Below, in pieces: positions 12,061 through 19,617 of a stretch of DNA of 64,000 nt. The position numbers and the translations under genes are program-made. The stretch covers positions 6,257-70,256 of IMG/VR virus record IMGVR_UViG_3300025276_000031, one strand, 5' to 3'. Source of the stretch: a virus. Positions within the stretch are counted from its first letter, which is position 1, and the number at the start of each line of letters is the position of its first letter. The notes under the pieces were generated by a model that was not told the DNA's origin, did not search any database, and worked only from the letters and a program-made list of their open reading frames with translations.

Positions 12061-15000
12061 ATGGCTACATATGCACTTGATCTGTCCGATGGTTCGCAAA
12101 TTAGTGTAAACGCTCCTAATGGTGCTACTAACGCAGAATTATTAAAATTAGCAAAACAACAACGTCGTGAAACACGAAAAACTGCGGCTAACGAACGTAG
12201 GGATGCCCGTGCTGACGATCTTTACGGGGAAATGGAAAACGTACCTCGACAAGCAATTTCGCAAGATGATGGTTTGTTTACTGATCTAGCCAAAGGTTTT
12301 GGTTCAGGGTTTGTTGGTACAGGCGAAATGGCGGCGTTAGGTGCAGCTACGTTACTAGATGAACAAGCTGAAGTTGTTGCTCGTGATAAAATACAAGGTA
12401 TTGCAGATGCAATAAAACCTAGCGGTGGCGACACTGATGATTTGTCATACAAGATTGGTCAAACATTTGGTTCTATTGCGGGGTTTGCTGTACCGATTGC
12501 TGGTGTAGCCGCAGGTATAGCTGCATTACCCGTTGCTGCTCCCGCTGCAGCCGTAGCTACAGGCGCAGGCGCGTTACTTGGTGTAGGTACAGCCGCTGGT
12601 GAAGCTAGTGAACGTGCCCGTGCCGCAGGCGCTACAGAAGAACAACGTAATACTGCTATTCGCAAAGCCGCACCTTTTGGTTTGTTAGAGGTTGCACCTC
12701 TTGGCAGATTTATGAAGTCGGTAGATGTTCCTGTAATTAACAAACTTATGGACAAACTTGGTCCTGAAGAAGTTGAAACCATAGGACAACGTATTCAAAA
12801 TGCTGCTGTAACAGGTGGCGCAGAAGGCGCACAAGAAGCTACTGCTGAGATTATTCAAAACCTTGCCGAACGTGGATACAATCCAACACGAGACATTTTA
12901 GAAGGATCAGGAGAGTCTGCTGCGTTAGGTGGTGGTGCAGGTGCGGCTATTCAGTTCCTTGTTGATGCGTTTACAAACAGTCGCAAAACTGGACCTGCCA
13001 CGCCAGAATCTGCACAGCTTGAGATGGACTTGCAAGGTGGTAGCGGTGCTGCTCCACGGCCCGGACTTCGCACCAATTTTGAAGGTGAACAAGGTGAGAT
13101 GTTTGCGGATGAGGTTGATTTAGGTCAGGCACCTCAACGTGAAGGCGTTGCTCCAGAACCTGATCCGCGCCAAAAAGAATTTGATTTTGGTCCCGAACCA
13201 GACAGTGAACCTGATCTTGTAGATCGTATGCAACAAAAGTTGCTTACAGGGCCAGATGATCTTGGTATACAATTAGATGATGGCATTTATACTGACGTAC
13301 CATACGCTACTACACGAGATCAACGAACGGCCCGTACCTCTGAAGGAATAGCTAGTTTATCCGCAGCAAATAAAAACAAAGCTGCAGTAATAGAACAAGC
13401 CAAGGCTGAATTACAAAACGACGGCATGATAACGCCTAAAACGCGTAAAGACATAGAGGCTACCCTCACACCAAAAGAGGCTGCTGACGCCTTAAAAGAT
13501 GCACGGTACGAGCCTATATTATCTACACTGGGTCAAGGTCCACTAGCTTCAGCACCAAATGTACCACAGGATAACCGTGCATTTGGTGACGTTCAACGCG
13601 ATCTTGTACCCCCAAAAGAAATACAAAATAAAGAAAATTTTGATGCGGCTGTAGAACGAAGTCGTGAAGGTGGGCTTGGCGCATTAACCAATAAAATTGG
13701 AGTAGAAGAACAAGCTGCACAAGCTAAAGCGCGGGACCGTCAAGGATTAGCCGCTGCAGAACGCGGTGATGTAGAAGCCTTTGAGCAACCTGACCTGTTT
13801 GCAATGGAACGCGAACAAGACGAACGTAAGTACGGCAAACCTGCACCTGCGCCTGAAGCTGTGTCTGAGATGTTAGGACCAATAGATTCAGGTAGGGCAG
13901 CTAATCCCGAGATAGATTTAGTTGATCGTATTGCTGCACTTGAAGCACAAGAGACAGGCGCAAACGTACGTAAAGCTACAGAACAAGCGCGACAAAAACA
14001 AGAAAACATAGACGTAGACACCGAGTTAGGTCTGCGTGATATGCAAGAAAGAGTAGCCCCAAGAGATCGAAGCAAAGCAGAAAAACAAAGGACAGACCCT
14101 GCGTTTGACTTTGTTAATGAAGATTTAGGGCGTAAACCTGAACGTCCTATAATTCCTGTTACCGCAACTAGAGCGCTTAGCGGACCAGATTTACGTGAAG
14201 GTTCAATTAATAAACAACCACAAAATGATGCAGAACAACTAGCGTTTGATTTTGCAGTACCCGAACCGTTGAAAGGACCACAAGATGCAAACAATCAATC
14301 AACTGACGCGGGAACAAGTGGAACTAGCGATGCAAATGCTGGACAACAGCGTGAGAGTGACGGGCAAACCGGAGCCGCTGCAAGTGCCGCTGGAGTTAAG
14401 TCACCTGACGGAAAAGGAGTGGGACGCGCTAGCCGAGGGGCTGGCAAGTCTGGTCGTGGAACAGGCAAGGGCAACGATTCATTAAAGGCAGGCGCTGCGC
14501 CTAAAGCCAAGAAAACCTACAAAGGTAGGGACATCAACACAACTTATTACCACGGCACTACTAAAGCCTTTGAGGGTGTTCCTGATCCTACTAGAGGTAC
14601 AGTAGAAGATAGCGATTACGGTCCTGCAGCGTATCTTAGTAAAAATAAAAATATTGGATTTGGCGAAGGTAAAAAAGGTCGGCTTATTGAAGTCAATATA
14701 GACACTTCTAATTTTGTTGATGTGCAAAATCCTGATGCTATACCTGATACACACCGTGCTAAAGTTATAGAGTATTTACGCAAACGTACGGGTAACGCTA
14801 AATCACCTGTAAATGTTTCTGCAATTACAAAAGATAATACAGTAGAGGTGTCATACACGGGGCCCAGAGCAAGTGTTTTAGAAAAACCTGAAGACAAAAC
14901 TTTTACGTTAGACTTTAGTAGTCACTCTAAGTTTTTAAAATCTTTGCTGCCTGTACTGCGTGGGCTTAGAACTTCGGGTAACAACACTAACACCCAAGAT

Positions 15001-18000
15001 ATACGCGATGCGTTAGTAGCTGCAGGGTTTGATGGTGTAATTACTGACACAGGTTCGACAAGAGGCATGAGCAACATAGCCGTCTACAACAAAGACGTTA
15101 TGACCTTAAAAGGCGCGATGTTTAAAAATAATAGATCAGAAGAAGAAGACAAAGACACAAAAAATAAAAAACCCGCTGAGTTTAATCGTGATGCTGTAGG
15201 TGGAAAAACAACAGGGGCAGCAGGACAAGTAATTCCCGGCGTAGCGCGGTCTAAAACAACTGATAAAAAAATATCAGCAGATACAAAAGAACGGTTTGCG
15301 CCTAAATCTCAAGAAAAAACATCTAACCAACAGTTTGCAAATCAAAGTGCTACACCTGCAAAGAAAAATCGTGCTGAAACTGTTAACTCTAAAGAAGCTG
15401 ATGTTGCACATAAGGCTAGGTTTGAAGCTCAACCTAAAGCTATTCAAGACATTGGTAAGGCTGACACTGAATCAAACGCCCCTAATGCACCTATGACTGC
15501 ATCAGACAAAAATAAAATATTAAAATTGTTAAACGACAAACGTAAAACTGGCAAACTTACAAACGCGGCAAGAAAATATTTTGATTCGTTTCCTACATTT
15601 ACTGGAGCAATAGATGCACTTACTTATGATGTAGGTATGCAAGTGTCACGATCTCGTAGAAACGAAGACTATACAGAAACTACAGCACAAGAACAATTTT
15701 ATTTAGATGATAAATCTAAAAGTATGCCTGCTATGACAGAAAAATCTGCGCGTCTTGTTACGGATTGGATGACTAAAGATGCAGGTATGTCTTCTACGTT
15801 TGTTAAACACGTCAACCAACTTATACAAAATGAAAGTGCAGCTAGGGCAGCACAAAGACAATACCTTAAATCAGATAAGGTAGCAGAAGCAGCTGCAAAT
15901 TTATCGCCCGAAGCGTTAACAATACGTGAAGCAGATTTAGCAAAAGACGCTAAAAAGCCATTACTTGCCGAGGCTACAATAGACACACCTCTACGACCCG
16001 TAGTAAAAACTATGTTACTTAAAGGAGATTTGGGTGGTGCGCTAAGTGCATTAGGACTTACTTCTCCGTCACCTTTAGTGCAGCGTTTAGCTACTAAATT
16101 AGGGAAAAATATTGGTGCTACTAAACTAACAACGGCTGCGAATTTAAAAACTCCTGATGGGGTTTCTGTCGCTGGCTATTTTGATCCTAAGACTAACACC
16201 ATTACGCTAAACAAAACATCTGGTATCAACGCACACACCTTGTTGCATGAGATGATACACGCAGTCACGTCTGCTACAATAGCAAACAAGTCACATCCAC
16301 TTACAAAACAACTGACTAAAATATTTGAGGGTGTGAAAGCGCAGGAATTGGCAACGGGCGAATATGCGGTCACAAACTTAGATGAGTTTGTAGCTGAAAC
16401 TTTGGCTAACCCTGACTTCTCCACACAGATGAAAATAACTACGGTCAACGGACGCAACCCGTTCTATCAAATGGCTCGGTCTATTGCTAATTATGTTAGG
16501 ACATTGCTCGGACGCCCTACAGTGCCGGAACAATCTACCTTTGATGCCGTTGACAACTTAGTACAAGCCCTCATGTCTCCTACACTTGAAGGACGCAACG
16601 CTAGTAAGATGTACGTAATGTCTCAAACTGTTGCAGGATCAAAAGCGATAATTAACAACCTCGCAACAAGCACGATAAAAGTTGACGATAAATACATTGA
16701 CGCTGTCCGTGACGCGATAGGAGATATACCTAGAACTGCACGTAAAGTGTTCCTTAAATTTATGCCTGTAAATGTGTTGGGTAAACTAGCAAGGTCTAAG
16801 ATTGCGGAAGCCCCCGAACTTAACACTATTGTAAATGGTATGAGTAACGCGTTACGTGAGGCCAACGACAAGCTACGCCCCTTGGTCGAAGACATAAGGC
16901 AGATGAAAAAAGACAAAACTCCCAAGGCGGTTAAAGATTATGCCACTCTATCTTATCTCGTACCTAACGCGTCATACTACAGGATCGACCCTCGCGAACC
17001 TAACTTTAAAAAAGCCTACAGCATTAAAAAAGACGCAGCAAAACGGTTAAGTCCTGTAGAGGCTAAAAAAATACATGACGAACTCCGTGCCCAATACTTG
17101 AGCATGGATCAAAATGGGCAGAAACTATATCGCACCATCACCAATATGTTTGAATCCCGTTTGACAGACGCACAGGCCGCAGTTGACGCCGCGATTGCAG
17201 CAAGTATTCCTGATGATGCAGGACGTAAGTCTGCCACCAAACGATTAGCCGAGTTGTTAGAAGCGGAACGTGGCGCTATCAAACCATTTGCGCCGTTAAC
17301 ACGCGCTGGCAACTACAGACTTGAGTATAACACAATAGACCCTAAATCAGGACTACCTGAGTATTTTATTGAATACTTTGACGGTGTATCTGCAAGAGAA
17401 CGTGCAAAGAAAAACGTAACCGAGTACAATGCAAAACTTTTAGCGGGAGGTAGTCTATCTACTGCACAACGTGCGTACATAAACAAACCTATGCAAGAGG
17501 GTGTACGGGGGGCTAACTTTAATTTTGATCAAGCCCCGCAAAACTCGTTTGTGTATAAGTTATTAAAGGAACTAGACGCTGCAGGTGTACCAAAAGAAAC
17601 GTATAATGGTGTTATAGAGTTGGTCCTAGATTCTATGCCCGAACGATCATTCATGCAATCGTTTCGTAAACGTGGGGATAAACGCGGGTTTGCAGGAGAT
17701 GTTACACCTACAGGTATGGCACAAGAGGCGTTTGACTTGCTTGACACTGTGCAAAGCAAAGGTCGTGATTATAACCGACAAATCATACAAATGCAGTACG
17801 GTTCTAAAATACAAAAATGGAAAACTGGTGTTAATGACAAATACAAAACCGAAAATTTAGACGATACAACCGCTGATTACAAAAAGACTTTGTTTAGCAT
17901 CGCTGATTTTGCGCAAAGCCCTAACGTAGCACGTTGGTCACAGAACGCCACATCGTTGGGATATGCGTGGACTATGGGCTTTAACCTATCTTCTGCAGCT

Positions 18001-19617
18001 ACGGCCATATTCGATGTCCCTATGTCTGGCGCACCAAGATTGATGGGTAAGTATGGAGACAAAGCGGCCATCAAAGCGTTGGGTAGGGCTGCAAGCGTTC
18101 TAAAAAATAGCCCCAAAGAACGGCTTATAGAGACATATGGTAGTGAAGTTGACAGCGCGGGTAATGCCATACCCGAAAAACGTAAAATTAACGGCGGCAT
18201 GGCTGGGTTCTCTGTGGTCAACTATAATTTTGACGCGATTCGTAACATGTCGGACGCTGAATTAAAAAAAGCAGGTATGACGAAGGCACAACAAAAGAAA
18301 CTGTTAGACTTGGAAATGTTAGCGGAAGTTGGTAGCGAAAACGCGCAGTTTAGTCAGTCGCTAAACCAAGAACACATGGACGTAACACGGGGCAAAGATC
18401 GTCTTGAGATGTTGAACGCGTATACTAGCTGGTTTTTCCACCACTCCGAGCGTTATAGTCGTGAAGTCCTTATGACAGCTACCTACGAACTAGAATTAGA
18501 CCGTTTACGTAACAATCCCAAACCTGCAGAACGTAATATGTCAGACAGTGAGAAGCAACGCGCTGCTGCACTTGAAGCCGTTAACGAGACAGAGACAACG
18601 CTGGGTGCTACTGCATCTGCAGGGCGTCCTGTTATTGCACAATCTGGCATTGGTAACGTGTTTATGTTGTTCAAGCGGTTTGCCATCAGCAAATACGCCA
18701 TGATGATTGAAATGACTAATGACGCCTTTAAAGGCGCAACTACAGATGCAGAGAAACAAGATCGTGCCATAGCCCGAGGACAGTTGGGTAGGTTTATGGT
18801 ATCTTCTGCTGCGTTTGCGGGTGTGGCAGGTATGCCCCTGATGGGTGCATTGGGCATGATGTACGATATGTATAGTGACGATGATGAGGACAACTTTGAC
18901 GCGGTACTGGACAAAAGTCTTGGCACGACACTTAGCCGAGGATTGGTGAACGCCGCGCTAGGGGCTGATATGGCTAGTCGGATTGAAATGAACAGCCTGT
19001 TGTACCGCCCACCGTTTATTGACAAGGATCAATCGCAGCTTTGGACGTTGGCTGAACAGTTGGGTGGCCCCATTGTTGGTATAACTTTGAGTATGGAGCG
19101 AGGTATCGGGCTGTTTAACGAAGGTGAATTTGTCCGAGGCACGGAAGCGGTAATGCCAGCCGCTGTACGTAACGTGATGAAGGGTGGAAGGTACGCAACC
19201 GAAGGAGCACTAACTCGTCGTGGTGACGCTATCAGCGAGGATATAGGTTTGTTCCAGACGATAATGCAATTTGGTGGGGCGCAGCCTACGGTTATATCCG
19301 ACCAACACCGCATAAACAGAAACAACCGTGGTAAAGACGATCATCTAAAAGAAACACGCACTAAGTTACTACGTAAATTAAACTTTGCGGCCTCACAAAA
19401 CGATGCCCGAGGATACCTTGCGGCATATAAAGAGATTGTAAAATACAACCGCGACTTACCTACTGCAGCGCGGGGGCGTAAAGTCATACTTAAAGAGACT
19501 ATTGATAGGTCACGTAAATCGTACGAGGATCGCACCAAAAAGATGTTAGGTGGCATTGAGTACACACCGTTTATGTTATCCAGTAATCGTGAGTATGGTG
19601 ACGGTTTGTTTGATTAA
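12061..19617 (+). CDS. Giant polyvalent ejected protein with ADP-ribosyltransferase-like and zincin metallopeptidase domains
   Basis: 2518 aa; YYHGT...YGPAAYLS...GFDGVI (ART-like, ~14545-15105); HTLLHEMIHA...DEFVAE (HExxH at 16246-16260); long helical C-terminal region; last gene of the late arm. Confidence 0.8.
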   Translation: MATYALDLSDGSQISVNAPNGATNAELLKLAKQQRRETRKTAANERRDARADDLYGEMENVPRQAISQDDGLFTDLAKGFGSGFVGTGEMAALGAATLLDEQAEVVARDKIQGIADAIKPSGGDTDDLSYKIGQTFGSIAGFAVPIAGVAAGIAALPVAAPAAAVATGAGALLGVGTAAGEASERARAAGATEEQRNTAIRKAAPFGLLEVAPLGRFMKSVDVPVINKLMDKLGPEEVETIGQRIQNAAVTGGAEGAQEATAEIIQNLAERGYNPTRDILEGSGESAALGGGAGAAIQFLVDAFTNSRKTGPATPESAQLEMDLQGGSGAAPRPGLRTNFEGEQGEMFADEVDLGQAPQREGVAPEPDPRQKEFDFGPEPDSEPDLVDRMQQKLLTGPDDLGIQLDDGIYTDVPYATTRDQRTARTSEGIASLSAANKNKAAVIEQAKAELQNDGMITPKTRKDIEATLTPKEAADALKDARYEPILSTLGQGPLASAPNVPQDNRAFGDVQRDLVPPKEIQNKENFDAAVERSREGGLGALTNKIGVEEQAAQAKARDRQGLAAAERGDVEAFEQPDLFAMEREQDERKYGKPAPAPEAVSEMLGPIDSGRAANPEIDLVDRIAALEAQETGANVRKATEQARQKQENIDVDTELGLRDMQERVAPRDRSKAEKQRTDPAFDFVNEDLGRKPERPIIPVTATRALSGPDLREGSINKQPQNDAEQLAFDFAVPEPLKGPQDANNQSTDAGTSGTSDANAGQQRESDGQTGAAASAAGVKSPDGKGVGRASRGAGKSGRGTGKGNDSLKAGAAPKAKKTYKGRDINTTYYHGTTKAFEGVPDPTRGTVEDSDYGPAAYLSKNKNIGFGEGKKGRLIEVNIDTSNFVDVQNPDAIPDTHRAKVIEYLRKRTGNAKSPVNVSAITKDNTVEVSYTGPRASVLEKPEDKTFTLDFSSHSKFLKSLLPVLRGLRTSGNNTNTQDIRDALVAAGFDGVITDTGSTRGMSNIAVYNKDVMTLKGAMFKNNRSEEEDKDTKNKKPAEFNRDAVGGKTTGAAGQVIPGVARSKTTDKKISADTKERFAPKSQEKTSNQQFANQSATPAKKNRAETVNSKEADVAHKARFEAQPKAIQDIGKADTESNAPNAPMTASDKNKILKLLNDKRKTGKLTNAARKYFDSFPTFTGAIDALTYDVGMQVSRSRRNEDYTETTAQEQFYLDDKSKSMPAMTEKSARLVTDWMTKDAGMSSTFVKHVNQLIQNESAARAAQRQYLKSDKVAEAAANLSPEALTIREADLAKDAKKPLLAEATIDTPLRPVVKTMLLKGDLGGALSALGLTSPSPLVQRLATKLGKNIGATKLTTAANLKTPDGVSVAGYFDPKTNTITLNKTSGINAHTLLHEMIHAVTSATIANKSHPLTKQLTKIFEGVKAQELATGEYAVTNLDEFVAETLANPDFSTQMKITTVNGRNPFYQMARSIANYVRTLLGRPTVPEQSTFDAVDNLVQALMSPTLEGRNASKMYVMSQTVAGSKAIINNLATSTIKVDDKYIDAVRDAIGDIPRTARKVFLKFMPVNVLGKLARSKIAEAPELNTIVNGMSNALREANDKLRPLVEDIRQMKKDKTPKAVKDYATLSYLVPNASYYRIDPREPNFKKAYSIKKDAAKRLSPVEAKKIHDELRAQYLSMDQNGQKLYRTITNMFESRLTDAQAAVDAAIAASIPDDAGRKSATKRLAELLEAERGAIKPFAPLTRAGNYRLEYNTIDPKSGLPEYFIEYFDGVSARERAKKNVTEYNAKLLAGGSLSTAQRAYINKPMQEGVRGANFNFDQAPQNSFVYKLLKELDAAGVPKETYNGVIELVLDSMPERSFMQSFRKRGDKRGFAGDVTPTGMAQEAFDLLDTVQSKGRDYNRQIIQMQYGSKIQKWKTGVNDKYKTENLDDTTADYKKTLFSIADFAQSPNVARWSQNATSLGYAWTMGFNLSSAATAIFDVPMSGAPRLMGKYGDKAAIKALGRAASVLKNSPKERLIETYGSEVDSAGNAIPEKRKINGGMAGFSVVNYNFDAIRNMSDAELKKAGMTKAQQKKLLDLEMLAEVGSENAQFSQSLNQEHMDVTRGKDRLEMLNAYTSWFFHHSERYSREVLMTATYELELDRLRNNPKPAERNMSDSEKQRAAALEAVNETETTLGATASAGRPVIAQSGIGNVFMLFKRFAISKYAMMIEMTNDAFKGATTDAEKQDRAIARGQLGRFMVSSAAFAGVAGMPLMGALGMMYDMYSDDDEDNFDAVLDKSLGTTLSRGLVNAALGADMASRIEMNSLLYRPPFIDKDQSQLWTLAEQLGGPIVGITLSMERGIGLFNEGEFVRGTEAVMPAAVRNVMKGGRYATEGALTRRGDAISEDIGLFQTIMQFGGAQPTVISDQHRINRNNRGKDDHLKETRTKLLRKLNFAASQNDARGYLAAYKEIVKYNRDLPTAARGRKVILKETIDRSRKSYEDRTKKMLGGIEYTPFMLSSNREYGDGLFD
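14285..14485 (+). CDS. Putative overprinted 66-aa protein nested in the +1 frame of the giant gene
   Basis: AAAGGA RBS 7 nt before ATG; protein-like amphipathic sequence, while the host frame is low-complexity G/A/S/R over the same span. Confidence 0.6.
   Translation: MQTINQLTREQVELAMQMLDNSVRVTGKPEPLQVPLELSHLTEKEWDALAEGLASLVVEQARATIH

What the first reader, a model, noticed from the sequence alone, without database searches (positions are those of the whole stretch)
14272..14485. Overprinted gene hidden in the giant ejected protein, directly ahead of its ADP-ribosyltransferase-like domain
Seen: a +1-frame ORF (MQTINQLTREQVELAMQML...LSHLTEKEWDALAEGLASLVVEQARATIH) with AAAGGA 7 nt before the ATG. 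It reads as an ordered amphipathic helical protein, while the main frame over the same bases collapses into G/A/S/R low complexity, the usual signature of overprinting. It ends about 60 nt before the YYHGT ART-like motif. Inference: a co-expressed partner, such as an immunity/inhibitor protein or chaperone, that keeps the toxic effector domain quiet during late synthesis and is left behind when the polyprotein is injected. That would be a nested effector-immunity pair that standard gene callers miss.
Basis: partly seen in the sequence, partly recalled or inferred. Interest (0 to 1): 0.75.

Follow-up and report, generated by a model that had tools for sequence, protein, structure and literature searches.

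The report
Conserved gene hidden inside giant phage gene
A 66-codon gene is written in a second reading frame inside the flexible spacer of a 2518-codon marine phage gene, and about sixty related phage sequences keep it intact, so it is a real hidden gene that gene callers miss, though what it does is still unknown.

Summary
From this one sequence it is not beyond chance (an ATG-ORF of this length arises in 126 of 300 synonymous shuffles).

Relatives decide it. All 62 related loci fetched hold the same ORF, nested in the +1 frame of a giant gene. ATG is present in 48 of 48 distinct upstream sequences, and most carry an AAGGAG-type ribosome site. Selection acts on the nested frame: pN/pS is 0.22 there against 1.98 in the host frame over the same bases. 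The host frame is also kept open and hydrophilic.

The product is an acidic two-helix protein. It belongs to an unnamed family: 109 cluster representatives, with no Pfam, NCBIfam or PADLOC match and one stray PHROG hit.

The effector-immunity idea is not supported. The downstream domain differs in 53 of 54 loci, while the small protein stays conserved. A role as partner or chaperone of the giant protein is my inference and was not tested; the complex prediction could not be run.

This scan has noted other small-protein families nested in linkers of giant phage genes on other DNA (unchecked AI notes). My paper searches found no description of such an arrangement.

The parts
14272..14277 (+). 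Shine-Dalgarno-like AAAGGA, 7 nt before the nested ATG
   Evidence: Read. Relatives carry AAGGAG, AAGGAGG, AGGAG or GGAG 5-8 nt before the ATG. The match is at least 5 nt in 40 of 48 distinct upstream sequences and at least 6 nt in 27 of 48. Among out-of-frame internal ATGs of the window the rates are 5.5% and 0.35%.
14285..14485 (+). Nested gene: 66 codons plus TAA, in the +1 frame of the host gene. It encodes an acidic two-helix protein (pI 4.7, net charge -5).
   Evidence: ORF. Conservation of frame, ATG and stop in relatives. Nested-frame dN/dS 0.03-0.43 across the pairs tested. AlphaFold2 model with helices 9-24 and 43-63, pLDDT 82.3. Family of 109 cluster representatives.
12061..19617 (+). 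Host gene: a 2518-aa giant polyvalent-type protein. It has a Gly/Ala-rich conserved N-terminal module, linkers, variable middle domains, an HEMIH motif and a DarB-like/PLxRFG-type C-terminal module.
   Evidence: Translation. PHROG DarB-like, E 2.9e-32, residues 2120-2501. Relatives carry Pfam LPD39, LPD38 or ART-PolyVal. No Pfam hit for the window's own protein.
14284..14487 (+). Host-frame reading of the overlap (host residues 742-809): a low-complexity hydrophilic linker.
   Evidence: Host-frame pN/pS over the overlap is 1.98. The frame is nevertheless open in every locus, although the median chance of that is 0.0115 given the nested protein. Hydrophobic fraction is 0.044 against 0.173 expected (0 of 60 shuffles as low).
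14500..15180 (+). Domain directly downstream (host residues about 814-1040, YYHGT at 14545-14559). It is weakly ART-PolyVal-like and is a swappable cassette.
   Evidence: Pfam ART-PolyVal E 0.01, 17 bits against a cut-off of 31.2. hhalign against the ART-PolyVal domains of relatives: probability 27.7%, E 6.4e-4, 61 columns. Absent from P0006, L002 and L003. An environmental contig joins 14489 to 15153.

Best explanation
Shown: 14285-14485 is a real protein-coding gene wholly nested, on the same strand and in the +1 frame, inside the linker of a giant phage polyvalent-protein gene. The same DNA is read twice. The nested frame carries the sequence constraint. It encodes a conserved acidic protein of about 7.5 kDa, predicted to be two amphipathic helices joined by a Pro-containing loop. 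The host frame only has to stay open and hydrophilic, and it serves as a flexible spacer between the conserved N-terminal module and the variable middle domains.

Inferred from signals: the nested protein is made by independent internal initiation on the giant gene's mRNA, at a conserved Shine-Dalgarno site and ATG.

Inferred, weakest step: because the gene was never found outside this position in this gene family, its product most likely acts together with the giant protein during late synthesis. I put a chaperone, assembly or packaging factor, or a brake on the embedded peptidase, at about 35%. Some other, unrelated function that is merely locked in place by the overlap takes the rest.
For: Presence. 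The nested ORF is found in all 62 related loci fetched. It shows up in 7 of 10 loci, and the other three (L007-9). It is in 4 of 4 new loci and in 48 of 48. It is always in the +1 frame of an open frame of 552 to more than 2400 aa. One search counts 49 distinct ORF DNAs and 38 peptides. One search finds 14 clusters at 70% identity, with pairwise identity down to 21%.

Start signals. ATG is present in 48 of 48 distinct upstream sequences, and the SD match is at least 5 nt in 40 of 48.

Selection on the nested frame. In the close pairs L002-L003, L002-L012, L004-L005 and L004-L006 all 29 nested-frame changes are synonymous; of the 26 scored in the host frame none is synonymous. Summed over ten pairs, nested-frame pN/pS is 0.22, host-frame pN/pS is 1.98, and the baseline from the host N-module is 0.42. 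Along the whole host gene (window against L002), only the two 60-codon windows over the ORF have more changes at host codon position 1 than at position 3, for example [29,10,8]. Of 13 listed environmental variants inside the overlap, none is synonymous in the host frame, 9 are synonymous in the nested frame, and none lies at a host third position.

Selection on the host frame. It is open in all loci, although given the nested protein the median chance of that is 0.0115 per lineage. Its hydrophobic content is below expectation in 37 of 38 lineages.

Family. A profile search found 109 cluster representatives at E<=1e-3, and 80 of them are 80 aa or shorter. Pro35 and Trp46 are invariant in 81 of 81 aligned sequences.

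Fold. The AlphaFold2 model has pLDDT 82.3 and pTM 0.66.

Conservation. The nested protein is the most conserved of the parts of the locus that I measured: mean p-distance 0.56 against 0.63-0.81 for four host segments.
Against: There is no expression evidence of any kind. No RNA run holds the stretch, and no proteomic or ribosome-profiling data exist.

From the window alone the ORF and its SD are within chance.

The nested frame's synonymous codon usage is atypical: GC3 is 0.72 against 0.39 for the host gene, and its usage score beats the host frame's in only 9 of 37 lineages. This is expected under overlap, but it means codon usage gives no support.

The function is unsupported. There is no match in Pfam, NCBIfam, PADLOC, PDB sequence or fold searches, BFVD or the ESM Atlas, and only one stray PHROG hit. 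Distance correlations do not single out any host module as a partner (rho 0.40-0.49 for all four).

One database protein, P0033, reads from host-frame sequence straight into the small protein. That could point to another way of decoding the frame.

Strict co-location may reflect only that an overlapped gene cannot easily move.
Confidence: 0.85

Rival explanations
1. Effector-immunity pair: the small protein neutralises the adjacent ART-like domain in the producing cell and is left behind at injection.
For: The ORF ends 59 nt before YYHGT. The downstream domain weakly resembles ART-PolyVal. Small acidic helical proteins can be inhibitors (own knowledge).
Against: The window's downstream domain type is unique among 54 loci, yet all of them keep the small gene. 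ART-PolyVal is above cut-off in 4 of 25 hosts, and there it lies about 400 residues away. Immunity genes normally follow their toxin domain and co-vary with it (own knowledge); this gene precedes the domain and does not co-vary. Environmental variants replace 14489-15153 but keep 14272-14489.
Confidence: 0.05
2. The +1 frame is reached by programmed frameshifting of ribosomes translating the giant gene. This would give a truncated N-terminal isoform that ends in the two-helix domain, rather than a free 66-aa protein.
For: P0033 (180 aa, from one 1.5-kb contig) runs from host-frame-like sequence directly into the small protein. Its residues 24-113 match host residues 583-676 of L047 at E 7e-17. 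SD-like elements can stimulate frameshifting (own knowledge).
Against: ATG sits at the homologous position in 48 of 48 sequences. A +1-frame stop lies directly before the ATG in L004-type loci (TAG ATG) and in L055 (TAA ATG). In the window a stop lies 4 codons upstream. I noticed no slippery site, by eye only. P0033 is a single short contig and may carry an indel.
Confidence: 0.05
3. Chance ORF: a linker poor in hydrophobic residues has few T at codon position 2, so its +1 frame is automatically open and no product matters.
For: The +1 frame is stop-free in 26.6% of synonymous shuffles, and an ORF of this size arises in 126 of 300 whole-gene shuffles. The ORF is bounded by the two Leu codons that flank the hydrophobic-free stretch.
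Against: It does not explain the conserved ATG, SD and stop, the nested-frame pN/pS of 0.22 against 1.98 in the host frame, the invariant Pro and Trp across sequences down to 21% identity, or the inversion of codon-position variability seen only here.
Confidence: 0.02
4. The conservation reflects a nucleotide-level element (an RNA structure, regulatory site or packaging site) rather than a protein.
For: There is an island of higher nucleotide identity at about 14300-14500 against L002 and L004.
Against: Variation is concentrated at nested-frame third positions, and amino-acid replacements are conservative. There is no Rfam match. The RNA around the start folds no better than shuffles, z 0.43. 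No promoter-like site was found.
Confidence: 0.01

Closest known systems
Lambda Rz1 embedded in Rz (two-component spanin genes)
   Same: Same strand, wholly embedded, +1 reading frame, own start. Routinely missed by gene callers (PMC6139136, passages read). The two products of that pair work together.
   Different: Rz1 is a Pro-rich lipoprotein embedded in a structured 153-aa-class lysis gene. Here the nested product is the ordered, more constrained protein, and the host frame is a disordered spacer of a 2518-aa gene. It has no lipobox or signal sequence and is not in a lysis cassette. An interaction of the two products is not shown.
Polyvalent proteins of phages and conjugative elements (Iyer et al. 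2017, PMC5512222)
   Same: The host gene family fits. These are giant multidomain proteins carrying LPD39, LPD38 or ART-PolyVal domains and a DarB-like C-terminus, with middle domains that are swapped.
   Different: A term search of that paper found 0 occurrences of 'overlapping' and no passage on nested ORFs. Genes hidden in the linkers are not part of the published description as far as I searched.
Other small genes nested in linkers of giant phage genes, noted earlier by this scan (e1-5901425, e1-5984722, e1-5925889, e1-3581702, e1-6095116, e1-5853690)
   Same: By their own summaries, the same architecture: +1-frame small helical proteins over low-complexity linkers of giant polyvalent genes, with selection on the hidden frame.
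   Different: They are on other genomes. Look-ups with P0001 and P0025 found no look-alike sequence, so this appears to be a different protein family. Those notes are unchecked AI notes and I did not test them.
TPR_10/TPR_12-type helical repeat unit
   Same: Five long hits of the first profile are TPR-repeat proteins whose repeat aligns to positions 10-40 of the small protein. Both are helix-turn-helix hairpins.
   Different: With the broad family profile the match is weak (hhalign probability 16%, E 0.0016, 35 columns). No TPR model matches the members at Pfam thresholds. This is a lead only.

Membership tests
Embedded same-strand overlapping phage gene (Rz1-in-Rz type architecture) | ORF wholly inside a longer ORF, on the same strand and in a shifted frame | tested here: met
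   +1 frame in the window and in all 62 related loci.
Embedded same-strand overlapping phage gene (Rz1-in-Rz type architecture) | Own translation start signals | tested here: met
   ATG in 48 of 48, SD of at least 5 nt in 40 of 48.
Embedded same-strand overlapping phage gene (Rz1-in-Rz type architecture) | Both frames under selection | tested here: met
   Nested-frame pN/pS 0.22. The host frame is kept open (median chance 0.0115) and hydrophilic (37 of 38 lineages).
Embedded same-strand overlapping phage gene (Rz1-in-Rz type architecture) | Both products shown to be made | not testable with these tools
   No RNA holder is listed, and there are no proteomic or ribosome-profiling data.
Toxin-immunity (effector-immunity) pair with the ART-like domain | The immunity gene co-occurs and co-varies with its toxin domain | tested here: not met
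   the window's downstream domain type occurs in 1 of 54 loci. ART-PolyVal in 4 of 25 hosts, and not adjacent.
Toxin-immunity (effector-immunity) pair with the ART-like domain | The immunity protein binds or neutralises the toxin domain | not tested
Pfam ART-PolyVal (PF18760), for the downstream domain | Score above the gathering cut-off of 31.2 bits | tested here: not met
   17 bits, E 0.01. The whole protein has no Pfam hit.
Pfam ART-PolyVal (PF18760), for the downstream domain | Profile similarity to bona fide members, including the YHG[ST] motif | tested here: inconclusive
   hhalign probability 27.7%, E 6.4e-4, 61 columns covering YYHGT and GRxxEV.
Large polyvalent protein (host gene) | Giant multidomain protein carrying LPD-type or effector domains | tested here: met
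   For relatives: LPD39 in 14, LPD38 in 4 and ART-PolyVal in 4 of 25 proteins scanned. The window's own protein has a PHROG DarB-like hit only and no Pfam hit. P0006, 90% identical to it by alignment, carries LPD39 and ART-PolyVal.
Any named small-protein family (Pfam, NCBIfam, PHROGs, PADLOC) | Significant match of family members to a curated model | tested here: not met
   Searches gave none. In one search, 1 of 76 members hits phrog_17850 (unknown function) at E 1.7e-4.

The most novel reading that the evidence does not exclude
The spacers of giant polyvalent phage proteins are not mere spacers. They are a general hiding place for small partner genes read in the +1 frame. On this reading the family is a dedicated factor, encoded in cis and made from the same late mRNA as the giant protein. 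It holds the giant protein (its membrane-active N-terminal module or its embedded peptidase) in a packaging-competent, inactive state and is left behind at injection. Such 'single genes' would then be two-frame operons, and the linker reading may have arisen by read-through across a pre-existing small gene.
Probability: 0.3. Interest if true: 0.85.

Novelty: new variant of a known kind. Interest (0 to 1): 0.72.

Why it matters
Long same-strand overlaps with solid comparative support are rare in tailed phages. Here the support is unusually strong, across 14 clusters and down to 21% identity.

The case reverses the usual picture. The nested frame is the ordered, constrained one, and the annotated frame is the passenger.

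It adds a protein family of unknown function (109 cluster representatives, named only 'hypothetical protein' where named at all). In all 62 fetched loci its gene lies inside another gene.

It also shows that a low-complexity linker in a giant virion or effector protein can carry a second gene. That matters for phage annotation, for dN/dS and codon-usage analyses of these genes, and for anyone engineering or recoding them.

Tried and rejected
Complex prediction. The job paired the small-protein alignment A7 with host N-module residues 60-330 of alignment A8. The queue was full or the machine gave no answer each time, so it never ran and there is no result.

RNA evidence. No RNA holder is listed.

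Structure and family look-ups gave nothing usable:
- Foldseek against the PDB, no hit at E<=0.001.
- BFVD, none.
- VIA-align wide search, best Z 4.9.
- PDB sequence profile, best E 0.37.
- ESM Atlas, no usable hit.
- PADLOC, none meaningful.

Deposited phages. blastn of the region found nothing. tblastn with P0001, P0025 and P0020 found no relatives. The giant protein matches 18 records, over only 12-30% of its length towards the C-terminus.

Prokaryote genomes. No relative of the small protein (A3) or the giant protein (A1) turned up. These scans rest on a few peptide patterns, so absence is weak.

First viral scan. A scan with the linker region alone found nothing, and so did one with P0013.

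Which frame is older. The codon-usage criterion favours the host frame, while order versus disorder and the pattern of constraint favour the nested frame. This stays unresolved.

Finding a partner module. Mirror-tree distance correlations were not discriminating.

Other elements. Promoter scan, none. Rfam, none. Local RNA fold, z 0.43.

Other +1 ORFs of the host gene (12929-13123, 15296-15496, 17672-17860, 18548-18703). None shows the inverted codon-position signal where the sequence is alignable to L002. Host codons 301-360, 661-720 and 781-1050 could not be tested that way.

Supplementary files of the papers were not opened.
Full report
**What is in the window**

The window is part of a 70,256-base virus record. 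It carries a portal gene, a virion structural protein gene and a replication module with DNA polymerase, helicase and primase. The region 12061-19617 (+) is one open frame of 2518 codons. The C-terminal 400 residues of its product match the PHROG 'DarB-like antirestriction' (E 2.9e-32). The window's own protein has no Pfam hit.

The reported ORF is exactly as described. ATG is at 14285, TAA ends at 14485, and the ORF is 66 codons in the +1 frame. AAAGGA lies at 14272-14277, 7 nt upstream, and a +1-frame TGA at 14270-14272 closes the frame. The host frame over it is G/A/S/R-rich. YYHGT follows 59 nt after the stop.

**Is it more than chance from one sequence? No.**

+1-frame stops need T at host codon position 2. 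The ORF is simply the stretch between two Leu codons in a segment with almost no hydrophobic residues. Synonymous shuffles of the host codons leave the +1 frame stop-free over these 66 codons in 26.6% of 5000 trials. An ATG-ORF of at least 66 codons arises somewhere in the +1 frame of the gene in 126 of 300 whole-gene shuffles. An SD match of at least 5 nt precedes 5.5% of out-of-frame internal ATGs in the window's genes (32 of 579).

**Relatives**

- Protein search found four giant relatives of the region (P0003-P0006).
- Pattern scans gave DNA: 10 loci from viral contigs with the giant protein, 4 further loci with the small peptide (its other six loci are the same contigs as), and 48 loci from metagenome contigs.
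- Some loci are the same contig held in two collections. For example L011 and L048 share contig length and sequence features.
- I therefore also count distinct sequences. One search gives 49 distinct ORF DNAs and 38 peptides. One search gives 39 different peptides, falling into 14 clusters at 70% identity, with pairwise identity from 21% and a median of 41%.

**The nested frame is kept everywhere**

- In 7 of 10 loci the homologous +1 frame is open, from an ATG at the same place to a stop at the same place.
- The other three (L007-9) hold it a little upstream, found with a family profile.
- All 4 new viral loci and 48 of 48 metagenome loci have it. In L054 the ORF is cut by the contig end.
- In every case it is in the +1 frame of an open frame of 552 to more than 2400 codons.
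- ATG is the start in 48 of 48 distinct upstream sequences. One locus that begins at the ATG was left out of this count.
- The SD match is at least 5 nt in 40 of 48 and at least 6 nt in 27 of 48, mostly AAGGAG(G) 5-7 nt upstream. The start assigned for L063 may be wrong.
- Stops are TAG in 32, TAA in 14 and TGA in 1.

**Which frame is under selection**

- Window against L002: the 49 differences fall [11,7,31] by nested codon position.
- In the four close pairs all 29 nested-frame changes are synonymous; of the 26 scored in the host frame none is synonymous.
- Nei-Gojobori estimates give nested-frame dN/dS of 0.03-0.43 and host-frame values mostly from 1.2 to about 6, with one close pair (L065-L066) at 0.39 on 2 changes.
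- Summed over ten pairs, which are not all phylogenetically independent, pN/pS is 0.22 in the nested frame, 1.98 in the host frame over the same bases, and 0.42 in the host's N-terminal module.
- Scanning the whole host gene (window against L002) in 60-codon windows, only the two windows over the ORF have more changes at host position 1 than at position 3: [26,20,14] and [29,10,8]. Three stretches could not be aligned and were not tested.
- Environmental contigs from four runs of four studies give 13 listed variants inside the overlap. None is synonymous in the host frame and 9 are synonymous in the nested frame. The four replacements are I>L, Q>H, T>S and L>M. None is at a host third position.
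- Outside the overlap, 12 of 27 listed variants are synonymous in the host frame. The tool withheld 9 further variants.
- The same contigs lose homology to the window exactly at 14272, the first base of the SD, and at 14489, four bases after the stop (joints and loose ends). The SD, the ORF and its stop therefore form a conserved island between two replaceable segments. The identity profile agrees.

**The host frame is also functional**

Given each nested protein, random synonymous codons leave the host frame open with a median probability of 0.0115 (range 0.0005-0.084; 37 peptides). It is nevertheless open in all of them. Among stop-free shuffles, the observed host-frame peptide has fewer hydrophobic residues than expected in 37 of 38 lineages (0.146 against 0.214). 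For the window the figures are 0.044 against 0.173, with 0 of 60 shuffles as low. The 'motif' DGxGVGRAxRG in the host frame appears to be the shadow of the nested EEWDALxEAL.

**The product**

A profile of eight nested peptides, searched against 1.84 billion representatives, found 109 proteins at E<=1e-3 and 12 at E<=1e-10.

- 80 hits are 80 aa or shorter and match end to end.
- 24 are 81-200 aa. The two I examined are an upstream +1-frame extension (P0014) and, for P0033, a host-frame fusion.
- 5 are long TPR-repeat proteins.
- The ten clusters looked up come from ENA, JGI/IMG, Logan and Tara, on contigs up to 52,627 bases. Where they are named at all, the name is 'hypothetical protein'.
- Pro35 and Trp46 are invariant in 81 of 81 aligned sequences. 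The last residue is His in 65 and Gln in 13 of 80.
- The family is acidic: median pI 4.86 and median net charge -5, n=76.

AlphaFold2 with 76 sequences gives two helices (9-24 and 43-63) and a short turn at 36-38, with pLDDT 82.3 and pTM 0.66. With 8 sequences the pLDDT was 69.8. No curated family or solved fold matches. The resemblance to one TPR_10-type repeat is weak (probability 16%).

**What it is not**

It is not tied to the ART-like domain.

- The 250 residues downstream of the ORF fall into 11 clusters among 54 loci, and the window's type occurs only in the window. The 250 residues upstream fall into 6 clusters among 59 loci.
- ART-PolyVal passes Pfam's cut-off in 4 of 25 host proteins scanned (L011, P0006, L033, L049), at about residues 1090-1260, some 400 residues after the ORF. 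LPD39 is found in 14 of the 25, LPD38 in 4, and 6 have no hit.
- The window's own downstream domain is only weakly ART-PolyVal-like (17 bits; hhalign probability 27.7%).

**How it most likely works**

Shown: two overlapping frames, both under selection, with the nested frame carrying the sequence constraint.

Inferred from conserved signals: free ribosomes start at the internal SD and ATG on the giant gene's mRNA.

Inferred without direct support: the product acts with the giant protein. In the DNA I could inspect it never occurs elsewhere. It is the most conserved of the parts of the locus that I measured. And the best-known embedded phage pair, Rz and Rz1, encodes interacting partners (PMC6139136, passages read). 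A frameshift route is a minor rival because of P0033.

**Known or new**

Embedded +1-frame genes are known in phages. The term search of the founding paper on polyvalent proteins turned up no mention of them. Four full-text searches found no description of genes nested in such linkers.

This scan's own earlier notes describe the same architecture with other small proteins on other genomes. They are unchecked, and sequence look-ups show no overlap with this family.

I rate the finding a new variant of a known kind.

Noticed in passing
P0033 (database protein, 180 aa) against L047 host residues 583-676: This protein, from a single 1.5-kb contig, reads from sequence homologous to the host frame (38% identity, E 7e-17) straight into the small protein at the SD/ATG junction. 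It could be an indel error, or a natural form in which the N-terminal protein ends in the two-helix domain.
   Followed up: partly
window 14045-14272 and 14489-15153: Environmental contigs join or lose homology exactly at these points, skipping 226 and 663 bases. The segments on either side of the nested gene are replaceable cassettes. The 663-base one is the ART-like domain, which is also absent from P0006, L002 and L003.
   Followed up: partly
window about 15390-16110 (host codons about 1110-1350): This stretch is almost identical to L002 (0-2 non-synonymous and 2-4 third-position changes per 60 codons), while the rest of the gene differs by 30-60 changes per window. That suggests recent recombination within the giant gene.
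   Followed up: no
P0010, P0035, P0056, P0073, P0103 (hits): The five long hits comprise three TPR-type repeat proteins (two scanned against Pfam, one with a CHAT domain) and two other repetitive proteins. In four of the five, the best stretch aligns to positions 10-42 of the small protein. The link is weak with the broad profile (hhalign probability 16%).
   Followed up: partly
L058:1390-4269: In one lineage (L055 and L058) the host open frame is only 960 codons and ends inside the contig, yet it still holds the nested gene at residue 345. The giant gene may be split there.
   Followed up: no
window 13740-14294 (-) and 14295-14510 (-): Antisense ORFs of 184 and 71 codons (TTG starts) lie opposite the linker and the nested gene. 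Long antisense ORFs are common throughout this gene in the ORF list, so they are probably chance.
   Followed up: no
window 12061-19617, +2 frame: The +2 frame of the host gene holds no ATG-ORF longer than 5 codons. All same-strand alternative ORFs of 50 codons or more lie in the +1 frame.
   Followed up: no
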